Shown: positions 23,901 through 44,900 of the stretch, piece after piece
Layout of the letters: each line of letters starts with the position of its first letter
How positions within the stretch are numbered: the first letter of the stretch is position 1
Source: Styela clava
Taxonomy: Eukaryota
Length of the DNA stretch: 64,000 nt
Assembly: GCF_964204865.1 (NCBI RefSeq)
Contig: NC_135256.1
Span: 6,944,001-7,008,000, forward strand
Direction of reading: 5' to 3'
Program-made: the position numbers

Positions 23901-26900
23901 CCCACACAACAATGTGCGGATTCTGTAACCGATTATTCACTGCAGTGCACTTGGCTTCAATTTTGAAACATGTCGGAAAGAGTTTCCCCTCGCCTCGAAA
24001 ATCGTTGTTGTGCGCAATGTGCTATGACTATTCTTGATCTATTTTTAGGATTTGGGAAAACTGCTGGACACGCTTTATCACATCACATGGAAGTCGACAA
24101 AATTTCATTTACTGGATCAGGAGTGACCGGACGCTTGATTCAGAAAGCTTCAGCTGATTCCAATTTGAAACGAGTCTCTCTGGAACTGGGAGGGAAAAGT
24201 CCCAATATTGTGTTCTCTGACGTTGATAGTAGGTCCCGTTATATTGTTTACCTATACGTTAACTCTATATCTATATTCCACTTCATATCTATTCTTCTAA
24301 TAGAAATCGTGGATATGGCTGAAAAAATTTTTGTTTTGCAGTTGATGAGGCTGTCTCTCTCGCAAATACTGCTGTATTCACGCACAACGGACAGATTTGT
24401 TGTGCTGGAACTCGAACGTTTGTTCACGAAGATATTTACGATGAATTCGTTAAAAAGAGCGTTGAAAAAGCAAAATCTTTGCCAACTGGAGATCCTAGTG
24501 AAGTCACCACAGTGAATGGACCACTGGTAATATGTAATAGAGATTATTATGTGTGGAAAGAGTTTAGTTACAACCATTGACCTTTTTTATACAATTCGCA
24601 AACAATTTTAGTTATTGATGTGCTGTATATTACTAAATTACTCCATTTTGTGATTTCATGGAATGTAAATTGGATGGCATTGGATAATAAATGCGTTAAA
24701 CAAAAGCAAAACTACCGCCATCATGTTATATTATCATTCTTGTTTTTTTCTACTGAATATTCTGCGTTTTTCAATAAATTATCAGATCAGCAAAATCCAA
24801 GAGGATCGAGTTTTGGGACTTTTGAAAAGTGGTGTTGAGGAAGGTGCTAAAGTTATGTGTGGTGGAAAAAAGATGGAGGGAAGGACCGGATTTTATATAG
24901 AACCAACTGTATTTACTGATCTTCGTGATGACATGAAGATTTCGCAGGAAGAGGTCAATCCATAATATATATATTTTTTTTATTCGTGGTATACCAATAT
25001 CTAACAAGTTCGAAATTTGAGAACGCGAAAAATAACTAAGCGATAAACAAAACAATAGTACGGAACGTACTGTTGCAAAGCGTTTTCTGACCAGCTGTAC
25101 TGCACAAGACTCCGTGGGCATTTCTTTATTTTTGTTTTCATTCGGGTAAGGAAATAGAACCTTCTTCACCCCGAATGCATAAATTTACTTTCATTCGAAA
25201 AAAATGATGTGCTCAGAAACGGAAATAGTTTGTAAATTGTGGCTTTGTCTCGTATATTTTAAATGCGAAGTATGTACAACTCAATCCATTGCAGGTCTTT
25301 GGACCTGTCCAACAAATTTACAAGTTTAAAGACGTTGATGAAGTTATAGAAAGAGCGAACAACACCCGGTATGGACTTGCTGCCGCTGTTATTACGAAGG
25401 ATATTGACAAAATCATGGCAATTACAAATGCTTTGCAGTCAGGAACTGTGTGGTAAGACTGAACAATTCATTTAAAAGCAAACTATGATAAGAATAATAT
25501 ATTGGTTTTACCAATGTTATAAATACACCTATGTTCTTTATAAGGTCTTGCAACTTTGGAAAACTAGTAATAATAAACTCTGCAAACGATTTATGTTAAT
25601 AAACGAATTATTGATGTTTTATCATTTCATTAAATGCCTCGGTGTCTCTGATGATATTAATAGGATGCTCCATAAACTTTTGCAGGGTGAACTGTTACTT
25701 TCCGTTCAGTCCAGGGGCTCCATTTGGAGGATTTAAAGAATCTGGAATCGATCGAGAGATGAGTGAATATACTTTAAGTCAATACACTGAAGTCAAGACA
25801 GTTATCATGAAGATTCCCGGATCTGGTGCTCAAATTTAACAAATTAAATGATTTTAGTGTTCAAACTTAAGTTCATCATATAAATTCACTTACCCAATAA
25901 ATTCTTGATTTTTCAAATTATTTTCGTTGAGATCCAGCACGCGTCCATGAGAACGTGCAACCGCAAGATGTAGCTGGATAAAAAGTCATGACTAATTATA
26001 GGCATCTTAATATTAATATTAAGGCACAAAAAAATTGATGAAATACTACATATTGGTCAGTTAATGGTAACGATCAAAATATAAAAACTATAAGAATACT
26101 CTGGCTCAAATTATGAGAGATCTCAAACAGTAATAACAAGAGAGATATAACGCACACTTGGTAGACAATAAAATATATCGATAATTTGATCAAACTCTGA
26201 TACTTCAATTGCGAATGAAGGTTACAAAGAACTACATTTCTATTCCAAAGTGTCAACCTTGATCAACCATTTTCCAAAAGTTTTATTCAACACGATAATC
26301 GCACGAAAACAAAAAACCTTCTTAAAATTACTGCCGACTTTATTGGTCTTATTTTAGGAATCGCATCTTTCCATCAGCCCTCCAGATGACCCGTGTCATC
26401 CCATTATATAAATTTTGAGACAAAACAAATCCATGCATTTTCGATAATATACTTTGCCTCGTGTTCTTATGGAAACGAGAAGTGAATGAACATTTTTAAG
26501 TGTTCATCCAATGTCGTTCCGTAAACCTACTATCTTGAAACTCAACACGTCATAACAAAAATCGGTGCTCAGCATCGCACAAGCATATGTGAGAATCGGT
26601 AAATACAGTATCTCTGTTAAGCTATGGAGGGGGGCACATAACAAATTCGTGTTTAGACCAGTATGGTCCAAATATTCCAACATAATTAGGACATACGCAG
26701 AAACATCAGAGCAAACATTCGGATTTCTCATAGTTACCAGATATCGTTCAGGTCGTAATTCGCAGCTAACTTATTTACAGAGTAGGTATTGCTATAGGAG
26801 CAGCTTCAATAATATTCGCGACTTGCCGTCCGTCTTCTACCGTTTGCCGTAGCCAGCTCGTAGCTCTTTACGTAAAAAGTGAGCGAAGAAGTTACTTTCA

Positions 26901-41900: not shown

Positions 41901-44900
41901 ACCAACAGATTTTGCCGATTTTGATCGTGAAAATTTGCGGCCATTTTAGCCATTGATCAGTTAATTTAAAAAATGTAGAGTTTGTCAAATTTCACTTCAC
42001 TTTGTGAAATATATAAAAATGAAAGTAATATAACTGGCGCACTATTTGGGAAACTACTATGGAAGGGATGGATTTATTAGGCTATGAAATTATTAGGAAA
42101 GGATGATGATCAGAAATAGATCTGCCAATCCAACTCATTTTAAATAATAATAGTTGACCTGAACATCTACATTTAATTTCCAACCTTGTATATTGGAAAA
42201 TTTAAATAACGACTTCGACCCAAAGTTTTTAGTGTCAACTTGAAGCACTCGAATAACACAACGTTAGTATGATAGAATCGATACATCAAAGTGCAGTTAT
42301 CTACAAAACTCACCGGATAAATAAATGAATGGATAAACCTAATAATACCATCCTAGGTATTAAAATTCGCACCTTACAATCATTACGTAACGTGTGACAT
42401 AAGACTAACCGATAATCACAATAAACGACTCGCATAGCATCCGTCTTGATCAGTAAAGTGTGGAGAGCCTTCATTTCGTTTTAAGGAAATGTGGATAATG
42501 TGAAATTATGAAGCGAGACTAATTTGGCATTGGAATCCATAAACCTTGTTGACCTATAAACTATAGACTTAATTGCAGTTCAATAAAAATGGATATACAA
42601 ACACTCTCGTACAGTCATACACACACATCGCTTAGTATTAAGAAAGTAAAAACTTTTTATTATCAAACAGTGACTCACAAAACGGATCACATTACGCCTT
42701 CTCCCATCCAACCTATTTTTTTTGCCTATTTGATAGCTGCACATAAAATCATAACAAAGAGCATGAAGAGGTAGCATGTGAGAAAAGTACTGATTATTTT
42801 GGTTTTTAAAAATGCAATTGTGAAAATGAATCAATACATATAATAGAGTACATATTTATAATGGTGTGAAATGGATCCTACACTCTGTTTCACACTTGAG
42901 CACCTGATCCGGGAATTTTCATAATAACGGTCTTGACTTCTGTATATTGGCTCAAAACGTATTCACCATTTTCGCGACCGATTCCAGATTCTTTAAATCC
43001 TCCAAATGGATTCCCAGGACTGAGTACGAAATAACAATTCACCCTGATGAAAGATTAAATTACTTACACTTATAAAATATCACCAAGTATATTACGAAAG
43101 CAAATAACTAAAACTAGACGCGTTGTGTTTTTGAAATACTAGACAAGGAAATTGGGCCCTCCAGACGTATATGGAGATAACCAATATCGAGGTAACTATG
43201 TGTTTGTTCGCCTACTTCACATCAAGTTGTGTGAATGGACGGAAGCCTATGGGCAAAGGATATGTATATTCACTTGGCTAACATAGACAGTCCCCGAACT
43301 CGTAATAAAACTAAAATAAGGAAAATCGGAATAAAATTATGTTCTAACCCCACCTGTACACACACTACAAGAGTACCGAAATTTGTATGTATACCCATGC
43401 TGCAATACTAAAATTTCGTGAAAAGGTACGGTCCGAATTTTGTCTTCCTCGCTGAGTTACAACCCAAGGTCTCACAATAATCGCTGATAAATTTTGAAAC
43501 TTGAATGCTTGATTTTATCAGAATTTACTTACCACACAGTTCCTGCCCGTAGAGCGTTCGAAATTGCCATAACTTTATTTACATCATTTGTAATAACTCC
43601 AGCAACAAGTCCATATCTAGTATTATTTGCTCGCTCTATCACTTCATTCACATCTTTAAACTTATAAATTTGCTGAACAGGTCCGAAAATCTGCAGTACA
43701 AACATCTTACAAAGCCTAGGCATGCGGAAAAGGTGTTCCATGTGCATTCCTAATTTTAAATGTCATTAGCTTCTGTTGTATGTTATTTTAAAACGAGGAT
43801 TAATGTTTATAAAATGCACCCTGACCTCTTCTTTTGAAACCTTCATGTCATCACAAAGGCCAGTAAGCACAGTTGGTTCTATATAAAATCCCTTCTTTCC
43901 CTCCATCTTTTTTCCACCACACATAACTTTTGCACCTTCCTCGACACCGCTTTTTAAAAGTCCCAACACTCGGTCCTCTTGGATTTTACTGATCTGATCG
44001 AAGAATTGAAATTTGAAGATATTAAGTCAATTTGTTTTGAAATGACATTAGTCCTATCTTAAAGCCTTTCTCATATTCCATTTTATTCACCCACAGGAAG
44101 AATATAATTTATTACCAATGGTCCGATCTCCGTGCTGACGTCCTCAGGCTCTCCAATTTTCAATGATTTTGCTTTCTGAACGCTCTTTTTAACAAATTCT
44201 TCGTATATGTCTTCATGTACAAAAGTACGACTTCCAGCTAAACATGTTTGACCATTATGCACAAACATAGCATTGCTAGCGAGAGATACTGCTTCATCGA
44301 CTGCAAAAATAAAATGCTTTAGTTCATCTATAGTTATCTATTTTTGATATAAGAATAAAAGTTCAACCAGACAATCAGAAATTCAATGCATAAACTACAA
44401 CGCTTATGGTTTCAACCTGTATTTCAAAATATAGACAATAACAAACTAGGGTACTCTCTAATTATGTGCACTAAGATGGTGCACAGCCTGAAAAAATGGC
44501 TGTGAAAGATTAGGGTTCATGTTGTGCGCCATCTTGATGCACATACTTCCGGTGCTCCCAAACTAGAGTTTGCTAATATTGTTTTTAACTTTCTGACTAG
44601 CTCAAAGTCAGATTGTATTGTTTGATGTTTATAAAAGCCAAGTTTCAGTAGTAATAGCACGTATGTTTGAATCAAATATAATGAAACTCACTATCAACGT
44701 CAGAGAACACAATATTGGGACTTTTCCCTCCGAGTTCCAGAGAGACTCGTTTCAAATTGGAATCAGCTGAAGCTTTCTGAATCAAGCGTCCGGTCACTCC
44801 TGATCCAGTGAATGAAATTTTGTCGACTTCCATGTGATGTGATAAAGCGTGTCCAGCAGTTTTCCCAAATCCTACAAAACATCGGATTATATACCAGTAA

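What the first reader, a model, noticed from the sequence alone, without database searches (positions are those of the whole stretch)
24049..44871. Exon-bounded gene conversion between inverted paralogues: ALDH-A exon 7 is nearly identical to ALDH-C exon 7
Seen: A exon 7 (24049-24228) and C exon 7 (44871-44692) differ at only 2 of 180 nt, both synonymous, by manual count. A and B differ at about 25 of 180 nt there. Elsewhere (exons 4, 8, 10, 11 and alignable intron 1) A is clearly the sister of B and C is more distant. Identity stops at the splice sites; the flanking introns of A and C are unrelated. Inference: a recent non-allelic conversion of the exon carrying FTGS and the catalytic Glu, either DNA-mediated (A and C are inverted, allowing fold-back pairing) or cDNA-mediated.
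Basis: partly seen in the sequence, partly recalled or inferred. Interest (0 to 1): 0.7.

Follow-up and report, generated by a model that had tools for sequence, protein, structure and literature searches.

The report
Exon-limited gene conversion between ascidian ALDH1 paralogues
In a cluster of four aldehyde dehydrogenase genes of the sea squirt Styela clava, one 180-base exon of two otherwise well-diverged, oppositely oriented copies is almost identical, which is a clean but ordinary example of one gene copy overwriting part of another.

Summary
The window is Styela clava, not human, and has no N. It carries four intact 11-exon ALDH1-like genes: A (+), B (-), C (-) and D (+). Exon 7 of A (24049-24228) and of C (44692-44871) differ at 2 of 180 nt, both synonymous. 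In the other ten exons A and C differ by 11-35% (pS 0.30-0.84, against 0.05 in exon 7). None of 2000 permutations reaches the observed A-C fragment score.

Outside exon 7, A is sister to B. Quartet sites give AB|CD 62, AC|BD 20, AD|BC 17, and A-B introns align in 10 of 10 cases. A-C identity ends within 2-4 nt of both splice sites, and exons 6 and 8 are not involved.

The best reading is a recent non-allelic gene conversion confined to the only stretch where A and C still share homology. Three things remain open:
- The donor is unresolved; the data argue equally against either origin (P about 0.03 each).
- A genomic-DNA template cannot be separated from a spliced-transcript template.
- An assembly artefact cannot be ruled out without reads.

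This is a new member of a known kind, of modest interest.

The parts
24049..24228 (+). Exon 7 of ALDH gene A. It is one of the two nearly identical copies. It encodes GFGKTAG...KISFTGS...ELGGKSP...DVD.
   Evidence: AG/GT boundaries and phase. Pfam Aldedh positions 193-249, E 7.6e-19. 2 of 180 differences to C.
44692..44871 (-). Exon 7 of ALDH gene C, the other nearly identical copy.
   Evidence: Gene C encodes the RefSeq protein P0001.
24046..24230 (+). Largest possible conversion tract in A: the uninterrupted A-C match apart from the 2 internal differences. The firm minimum is 24075-24228, from AC|BD sites at exon positions 27 to 180.
   Evidence: Alignment with flanks; site lists.
33126..33305 (-). 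Exon 7 of gene B, the sister of A. It is not converted and differs at 25 of 180 nt from both A and C.
56569..56748 (+). Exon 7 of gene D, the outgroup copy. It differs at 53-58 of 180 nt from A, B and C.
20509..25839 (+). Gene A: 11 exons, 499 codons plus stop, no in-frame stop in any exon.
31295..39166 (-). Gene B: 11 exons with the same exon lengths as A. It encodes RefSeq protein P0002.
42890..48922 (-). Gene C: 11 exons with the same exon lengths as A. It encodes RefSeq protein P0001.
52344..61206 (+). Gene D: 11 exons, with a GC donor after exon 6. It encodes RefSeq protein P0005.
24786..24953 (+). Exon 9 of A. Together with B 32325-32492 and C 43826-43993 it shows a second, older homogenisation in which A, B and C are equidistant.
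   Evidence: A-C 19/168, B-C 20/168, A-B 17/168. P about 1e-4 against the other nine exons. With exon 7 removed, the best A-C and B-C fragments both lie in exon 9; 7 of 2000 and 6 of 2000 permutations reach them.
43826..43993 (-). Exon 9 of C, partner in the older homogenisation.

Best explanation
Exon 7 of one of the two genes (A or C; which one is unresolved) was overwritten by exon 7 of the other through non-allelic (interlocus) gene conversion.

Inferred mechanism: a break in or near exon 7 of the recipient was repaired by homologous recombination, using as template the paralogue that lies 20.4 kb away in inverted orientation on the same chromosome. A and C share no alignable intron sequence, so pairing, and hence the copied tract, could not pass the exon ends. 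This gives a tract of 154-185 nt that fills the exon.

Shown: near-identity including synonymous sites; conflict between exon 7 and every other part of the gene; sharp limits at the splice sites; intact genes.

Inferred: the break-repair mechanism, the genomic-DNA template and the recency. Exon 7 A-C pS is 0.047, about a sixth of the A-B value (0.30). Total A-C divergence of 1.1% is of the order of the 1.72% genome heterozygosity reported for the species.

An older event of the same kind homogenised exon 9 between C and the A/B lineage.
For: - Divergence: 2 of 180 differences, both synonymous. pS is 0.05 against 0.30-0.84 in the ten other exons.
- Permutation: 0 of 2000 permutations reach the A-C fragment score; binomial P is 3.6e-16 at the pooled rate and 1.2e-7 at the lowest other-exon rate.
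- Quartet sites: exon 7 gives AB|CD 0, AC|BD 7, AD|BC 1; the other exons give 62/20/17.
- Introns: A keeps A/B-type introns on both sides. A-B intron 6 scores 20 against a shuffle maximum of 13, and intron 7 scores 17 against 15. A-C intron 6 scores 11 against 16.
- Tract limits: mismatches at -4 and at +3/+4; the last exon base is A=C against B=D.
- Neighbouring exons: A and C differ 5 nt before the end of exon 6 and at nt 2 of exon 8. The A=C sites in exon 8 are scattered.
- Gene integrity: all four genes have open exons and canonical splice sites.
- No further exon-7-like copy is in the window.
- Exon 9 shows that exon-scale homogenisation recurs in this cluster.
- Known precedent: non-allelic conversion of coding tracts of 93 to over 626 bp between linked paralogues, detected by the same kind of test (PMC8476164, passages read).
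Against: - Low prior homology: before conversion, A and C probably shared only about 79-86% identity over 180 bp, with perfect runs of at most about 23 nt (B-C as proxy). From recall, this is low for homologous repair.
- A and B show no conversion: they are more alike (90% in exons, alignable introns) and closer, yet have no significant fragment (1232 and 573 of 2000 permutations reach it).
- Ambiguous donor: exon 7's distance to B (25 differences) fits neither origin well. The expectation is 16.4 for an A-type origin (P 0.028) and 36.2 for a C-type origin (P 0.032).
- Template not separated: nothing here distinguishes a genomic template from a spliced-transcript template.
- No independent data: no second sequence source (reads, second assembly, population) could be consulted.
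Confidence: 0.62

Rival explanations
1. The same conversion took place, but it was templated by a spliced transcript (mRNA or its cDNA) of the donor gene rather than by its genomic DNA. Pairing then stops at the exon ends because the template continues with exon 6 or exon 8 sequence where the recipient has introns.
For: The tract fills the exon and ends within 2-4 nt of both splice sites. A second homogenised exon (exon 9) is separated from exon 7 by an unconverted exon 8 and by unrelated introns. The nearer and more similar copy B was not used, so sequence homology and proximity alone do not predict the partner.
Against: - A genomic template predicts the same limits, because A-C introns are unalignable in 9 of 10 cases.
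- No intron was lost, and exons 6 and 8 were not co-converted across the spliced junctions. The mismatches lie 5 nt before the end of exon 6 and at nt 2 of exon 8.
- No reverse-transcriptase gene was found, although none was specifically looked for beyond the long open frames.
- Transcript-templated repair in animals' germ lines is, from recall, not established.
Confidence: 0.15
2. Assembly or error-correction artefact: the true exon 7 of A (or of C) differs, and the sequence of the other copy was written over it during consensus calling or short-read correction.
For: The published S. clava assembly used PacBio RS II reads with FALCON, plus Illumina reads for error correction (PMC7540406, passages). 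I could consult no reads or second assembly. I also cannot show that the window comes from that assembly.
Against: - Reads would be mis-placed between copies only if the copies were already nearly identical; every other exon differs by 11-35%.
- An artefact has no reason to stop at splice sites on both sides. Long reads of several kb carry exon 7 together with its copy-specific introns.
- Two differences remain inside the tract, one with A=D and B=C and one with A=B. This looks like later mutation rather than copying.
Confidence: 0.05
3. A and C were each converted by a third ALDH copy outside the window, so they did not exchange sequence directly.
For: The exon 7 sequence fits neither an A-type nor a C-type origin well. 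Ser in KISFTGS is found only in A and C among the six sequences compared.
Against: The exon-7 peptide search returned only three S. clava clusters, which are C, B and D of this window. No other copy is in the window. This reading needs two events instead of one.
Confidence: 0.05
4. There was no transfer. Exon 7 of A and C is kept identical by selection on the nucleotide sequence, or became identical by convergence.
For: Exon 7 encodes the most conserved part of the enzyme. Its pN against D is 0.12-0.13, compared with 0.20-0.22 overall.
Against: Synonymous sites are also identical (2 differences over 42.8 synonymous sites), while B, under the same protein constraint, differs at 20 of 43. The window has no Rfam match.
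Confidence: 0.01

Closest known systems
Non-allelic (interlocus) gene conversion between linked paralogues, as detected with GENECONV. Examples: salamander Nav1.1-1.3 genes (PMC8476164, passages read) and primate class I ADH genes (PMC3409193, passages read).
   Same: A short coding tract (there 93 to over 626 bp) of near-identity between paralogues on one chromosome. It conflicts with the gene tree and is significant against permuted site order.
   Different: Here the tract coincides with one whole exon. It lies in inverted copies 20 kb apart. It skips the nearer and more similar paralogue. The background divergence is high (A-C dS about 1.0).
Single-exon conversions between human paralogues, such as the CYP2D7-derived exon 9 tract in CYP2D6 alleles. 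This is recalled and comes from no call.
   Same: One exon of a gene carries the paralogue's sequence while the neighbouring exons and introns keep their own.
   Different: Those paralogues are over 90% identical throughout, introns included, so the limits are not set by loss of homology.
Arm-to-arm conversion in inverted repeats and palindromes, for example on sex chromosomes. This is recalled and comes from no call.
   Same: Intrachromosomal, non-reciprocal exchange between copies in inverted orientation. A crossover between such copies would invert the segment between them, not delete it.
   Different: Palindrome arms are homogenised over many kb and continuously. Here only 180 bp are homogenised.
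Transcript- or cDNA-templated break repair, shown experimentally in yeast. This is recalled and comes from no call.
   Same: It would give tracts that end at exon junctions.
   Different: Its hallmarks, intron loss or tracts continuous across spliced junctions, were tested here and are absent.

Membership tests
Aldehyde dehydrogenase family (Pfam PF00171), ALDH1/ALDH2-like class | Match to the Aldedh profile above the curated cut-off | tested here: met
   The exon 7 peptides of A and C each score 68 bits against a cut-off of 23, E 7.6e-19, profile positions 193-249. The database rows for the B, C and D proteins carry PF00171.
Aldehyde dehydrogenase family (Pfam PF00171), ALDH1/ALDH2-like class | Closest solved and named relatives are ALDH1A/ALDH1B/ALDH2 enzymes of about 500 residues | tested here: met
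   The best PDB matches to the exon 7 peptide are ALDH, ALDH X (1B1), retinal dehydrogenase 1 and 2, and ALDH2, with E 1e-21 to 1e-17 at chain residues of about 217-283. NCBI names the proteins 'aldehyde dehydrogenase 1A1-like' and 'aldehyde dehydrogenase X, mitochondrial-like'. Gene A sums to 499 codons.
Aldehyde dehydrogenase family (Pfam PF00171), ALDH1/ALDH2-like class | General-base Glu in ELGGKSP, and nucleophile Cys in the next exon | tested here: met
   ELGGKSP is present in exon 7 of all four genes. GQICCAG (A, B), GQTCLAG (C) and GQVCNAG (D) are present in exon 8. The catalytic role of these residues is recalled and was not tested. Retinal-specific activity was not tested.
Non-allelic gene conversion | A tract of identity between paralogues that is significantly higher than in the rest of the alignment, synonymous sites included | tested here: met
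   pS 0.05 against 0.30-0.84; 0 of 2000 permutations reach the observed score.
Non-allelic gene conversion | Phylogenetic conflict between the tract and its flanks | tested here: met
   Quartet sites are 0/7/1 in exon 7 and 62/20/17 elsewhere. A-B introns align in 10 of 10 cases and A-C in 1 of 10.
Non-allelic gene conversion | Non-reciprocal transfer with an identifiable donor and recipient | tested here: inconclusive
   Homogenisation, rather than a swap, implies a non-reciprocal event. The donor could not be named: P is 0.028 against an A origin and 0.032 against a C origin. Amino acids and GC3 are uninformative.
Non-allelic gene conversion | The tract is real in the organism (reads, second assembly, population data) | not testable with these tools
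   No collection of eukaryote genomes or reads is on hand.
cDNA/transcript-templated conversion | Tract continuous across spliced exon junctions, or loss of the intervening introns | tested here: not met
   Introns 6 and 7 are retained and are of A/B type in A. A and C differ 5 nt before the end of exon 6 and at nt 2 of exon 8.
cDNA/transcript-templated conversion | Tract limits at exon junctions | tested here: met
   This does not discriminate, because a genomic template predicts the same limits here.

The most novel reading that the evidence does not exclude
The two exon-scale homogenisations in this cluster are exon 7 (recent, A with C) and exon 9 (older, C with the A/B lineage). They are separated by an unconverted exon 8 and by unrelated introns, and they bypass the nearer and more similar paralogue B. 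Under this reading they are footprints of break repair templated by spliced transcripts in an animal germ line. That would be natural evidence for transcript-templated recombination that leaves introns in place.
Probability: 0.12. Interest if true: 0.7.

Novelty: new member of a known kind. Interest (0 to 1): 0.3.

Why it matters
- **Gene trees.** Ascidians carry several lineage-specific Aldh1 genes: four in Ciona robusta, and three each in Botrylloides, Botryllus and Molgula (PMC5882950, passages). Such genes are used to discuss the evolution of retinoic-acid synthesis. Exon-scale conversion makes trees of these genes mosaics: exon 7 groups A with C, exon 9 gives a star, and the rest groups A with B. 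Orthology and dating from whole-protein trees in this family should therefore be checked exon by exon.
- **Enzyme core.** The event gives two otherwise 18% different proteins (82.0% identity) an identical cofactor-binding and general-base segment. This includes a Ser in KISFTGS seen only in these two copies.
- **Mechanism.** It is a clean natural case of conversion across only 180 bp of moderately diverged homology.

Tried and rejected
- **Naming the donor.** I tried four approaches. Distance to B scaled by distance to D is equally bad for both origins. Outgroup-polarised site patterns are expected to be symmetric and were 7 against 11-12. Amino-acid states in the two closest sequences from outside S. 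clava were uninformative. GC3 of A and C is 0.343 and 0.341, so it has no contrast.
- **Possible second A-C tract at the end of intron 7.** An ungapped count gave A-C 16/26 against A-B 7/26. A gapped three-way alignment showed T-rich acceptor sequence shared by all three copies, with a 4-nt indel in B. Exon 8's ten A=C sites are scattered. I rejected this tract.
- **Leakage of the exon 7 tract into introns.** Upstream, A-C match at 9/26, which is background level. Downstream (+7 to +30), A-C match at 12/24, but B-C match at 13/24. This is old similarity common to all copies, not the tract.
- **RNA element in the exon.** An Rfam scan of the whole window at gathering thresholds gave 0 matches.
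- **Cluster membership.** A-B protein identity of 91.1% would explain why A has no separate 90% representative, but this stays unchecked.
- **Timed-out run.** A first permutation run of 20000 permutations per test timed out. It was repeated with 2000.
- **Literature.** 'Styela clava' with 'aldehyde dehydrogenase' found 2 papers, both on stem cells by title and abstract. I found no description of this cluster or event. PMC2682703 (passages) used Ciona only as an outgroup and added nothing.
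Full report
**Source and scope.** The window has no N and no masked bases. The exon 7 peptide of the finding matches, at 100%, 93% and 85%, three NCBI proteins of Styela clava that lie on one 24.3-Mb contig. The window is therefore ascidian, not human. The formal whole-CDS step (GENECONV, RDP or PAML on a joined alignment) was left out.

**Anatomy.** Self-comparison and tblastn with the three RefSeq proteins show four ALDH1-like genes:

| Gene | Window coordinates | Strand | RefSeq protein |
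|---|---|---|---|
| A | 20509-25839 | + | none listed separately |
| B | 31295-39166 | - | P0002 |
| C | 42890-48922 | - | P0001 |
| D | 52344-61206 | + | P0005 |

Each gene has 11 exons, with identical lengths for exons 1-10. Acceptors are AG and donors GT; the one exception is a GC donor after D exon 6. No exon has an in-frame stop. Gene A sums to 1500 nt.

A has no representative of its own in the protein search. A-B protein identity of 91.1% (451 of 495 codons compared) would place it in B's 90% cluster.

Exon 7 matches Pfam Aldedh positions 193-249 and residues of about 217-283 of solved ALDH1A1, 1A2, 1B1 and ALDH2 chains. It contains KISFTGS and ELGGKSP. That this Glu is the general base is recalled knowledge.

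**The observation.** A exon 7 (24049-24228) and C exon 7 (44692-44871) differ at 2 of 180 nt. Position 62 is TTT/TTC and position 140 is CTG/CTC, and both changes are synonymous. A-B and B-C each differ at 25 of 180.

A-C differences in the other exons:

| Exon | 1 | 2 | 3 | 4 | 5 | 6 | 8 | 9 | 10 | 11 |
|---|---|---|---|---|---|---|---|---|---|---|
| A-C difference (%) | 25.5 | 16.2 | 19.9 | 34.6 | 11.3 | 21.1 | 25.4 | 11.3 | 23.4 | 19.4 |

- The pooled A-C difference is 21.1%.
- The proportion of synonymous differences (Nei-Gojobori) for A-C is 0.05 in exon 7 (2.0 of 42.8 sites), 0.30-0.84 elsewhere and 0.55 pooled.
- The binomial probability of at most 2 differences in 180 is 3.6e-16 at the pooled rate and 1.2e-7 at the lowest other-exon rate.
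- In a GENECONV-style test, the order of the 631 polymorphic sites was permuted. The A-C best fragment scores 60.2, and 0 of 2000 permutations reach it (maximum 28.8). With no mismatch allowed, the observed run is 24 sites, again reached by 0 of 2000 (maximum 20).
- A-B shows no significant fragment: 1232 and 573 of 2000 permutations reach the observed values.

**Background tree.**
- Without exon 7, quartet-informative sites give AB|CD 62, AC|BD 20 and AD|BC 17. Exon 7 alone gives 0, 7 and 1.
- Pooled dS without exon 7 is 0.38 for A-B, 0.99 for A-C and 1.17 for B-C. Distances to D are saturated.
- Intron local alignments against 20 shuffles: A-B exceeds every shuffle in 10 of 10 introns. A-C does so in 1 of 10 (intron 7, 17 against 15). 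B-C does so in 2 of 10: intron 4, through a shared interspersed repeat, and intron 5, marginally (16 against 14).

**Limits of the tract.**
- Upstream, A and C first differ at intron position -4. Downstream they differ at +3 and +4, where A equals B (gtagg) and C has gtgag.
- The last exon base is A in A and C, and G in B and D.
- AC|BD sites lie at exon positions 27, 50, 57, 134, 167, 170 and 180. A=C-not-B sites run from position 4 to 180.
- The tract is at most 24046-24230 (185 nt) and at least 24075-24228 (154 nt).
- The tract does not continue into the neighbouring exons as they would lie on a spliced template. A and C differ 5 nt before the end of exon 6 and at nt 2 of exon 8.
- A's introns 6 and 7 are still of the A/B type.
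- The first 17 or so nt of intron 7, and its T-rich last 50 or so nt, are weakly similar in all three copies. B-C is as similar there as A-C, so this is old shared sequence and not part of the tract.

**Mechanism.** The pattern is that of a non-reciprocal transfer between paralogues. I take ordinary homologous repair from the genomic paralogue as most likely. The paralogue lies 20.4 kb away in inverted orientation (pair I2). Exon 7 is the only contiguous A-C homology in the neighbourhood, so any heteroduplex must end at the exon borders. An exon-bounded tract is therefore expected and does not argue for a cDNA template.

A transcript template remains possible. It predicts the same limits, but its positive hallmarks (intron loss, junction-spanning tracts) are absent.

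Three points sit uneasily with simple homology-driven repair:
- The likely prior identity was only about 79-86%, with perfect runs of at most about 23 nt.
- The more similar and nearer copy B was bypassed.
- Exon 7's distance to B is intermediate.

**Direction.** Scaled by each exon's distance to D, A-B distances are 0.17-0.41 (mean 0.30) and B-C distances are 0.32-0.94 (mean 0.66). Exon 7 gives 0.45. The 25 observed differences compare with 16.4 expected for an A-type origin (Poisson P 0.028) and 36.2 for a C-type origin (P 0.032). Amino-acid states in the closest sequences from outside S. clava, and GC3, do not help. The donor is unresolved. An earlier homogenisation of exon 7 near the time of the A/B duplication would explain the intermediate value, but this is inference.

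**Age.** Exon 7 A-C pS is 0.047 (Poisson 95% interval 0.006-0.169), about a sixth of the A-B value. Total divergence of 1.1% is of the order of the 1.72% heterozygosity reported for S. clava (PMC7540406, passages). The event may therefore be recent enough to be polymorphic.

**Exon 9.** A-C (19/168), B-C (20/168) and A-B (17/168) are equal. A-C and B-C are about half the rate of the other nine exons (P 1.5e-4 and 1.1e-4), while exon 9's distance to D is normal at 37.5%. With exon 7 removed, the best A-C and B-C fragments both fall in exon 9 (positions 10 or 24 to 123), and 7 and 6 of 2000 permutations reach them. I read this as an older conversion between C and the A/B lineage. The cluster is therefore a mosaic with at least two exon-scale events.

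**Artefact.** The published assembly used PacBio and FALCON with Illumina error correction; whether the window comes from it is not shown. Mis-correction between copies that differ by 11-35% elsewhere, stopping at both splice sites and leaving two internal differences, is unlikely. It cannot be excluded without reads.

**What is known.** Non-allelic conversion of short coding tracts between linked paralogues is well documented (PMC8476164 and PMC3409193, passages; PMC3966223 and PMC3924818, search listing only). Multiple lineage-specific Aldh1 genes in ascidians are known (PMC5882950, passages). A search for 'Styela clava' with 'aldehyde dehydrogenase' found 2 papers, neither on this cluster by title and abstract. 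The searches listed no ascidian ALDH conversion.

**Verdict.** This is a new member of a known kind, with interest 0.3.

Noticed in passing
A 24786-24953, B 32325-32492, C 43826-43993: Exon 9 is equidistant among A, B and C (17-20 differences of 168), although its distance to D is normal. With exon 7 removed, the best A-C and B-C fragments both lie here (7 and 6 of 2000 permutations reach them). It is probably an older exon-scale conversion between C and the A/B lineage.
   Followed up: yes
window 59727-59858 and 61065-61206 (+): Gene D has two exon-11-like exons. The RefSeq D protein (named isoform X1) matches the downstream one at 100% and the upstream one at 79%. An unnamed D-like protein from elsewhere (P0003) matches the upstream one better (86% against 79%). 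They may be alternative last exons.
   Followed up: partly
window 20509-25839 versus 31295-39166: A and B are the most similar pair (10% nt difference, alignable introns) and lie closest, in inverted orientation. Even so, they show no significant conversion fragment.
   Followed up: yes
window 4544-4770, 33344-33570 (B intron 6), 34625-34740 (B intron 4), 46097-46206 (C intron 4), 48679-48802, 50661-50784, 40910-41092, 43190-43376, 57692-57847, 63924-64000: A short interspersed repeat family with internal inverted arms (for example 33344-33406 and 33489-33551), which looks MITE-like. Copies sit in introns of B and C and between the genes. This repeat accounts for the B-C similarity in intron 4.
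   Followed up: partly
window 17981-18160, 19105-19311, 23131-23333 (A intron 5), 38114-38323 (B intron 2): A second repeat family of about 200 nt at 78-91% identity, in both orientations.
   Followed up: no
window 19981-20184: A tandem duplication of about 101 nt at 99% identity, just upstream of gene A.
   Followed up: no
window about 10571-13699 (+): Open-frame pieces of a neighbouring gene. The piece at 12812-13177 matches the glycosyl hydrolase family 31 TIM-barrel domain (PF01055, E 1.2e-6). The other three pieces tested gave no Pfam hit.
   Followed up: partly
window 61941-62612 (-): A 223-residue open frame, rich in charged residues, with no Pfam match. An overlapping 211-residue frame lies on the other strand.
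   Followed up: no
window 24103-24105 and 44815-44817: Ser in KISFTGS is found only in A and C. B, D and the four other sequences compared have Ala there.
   Followed up: partly
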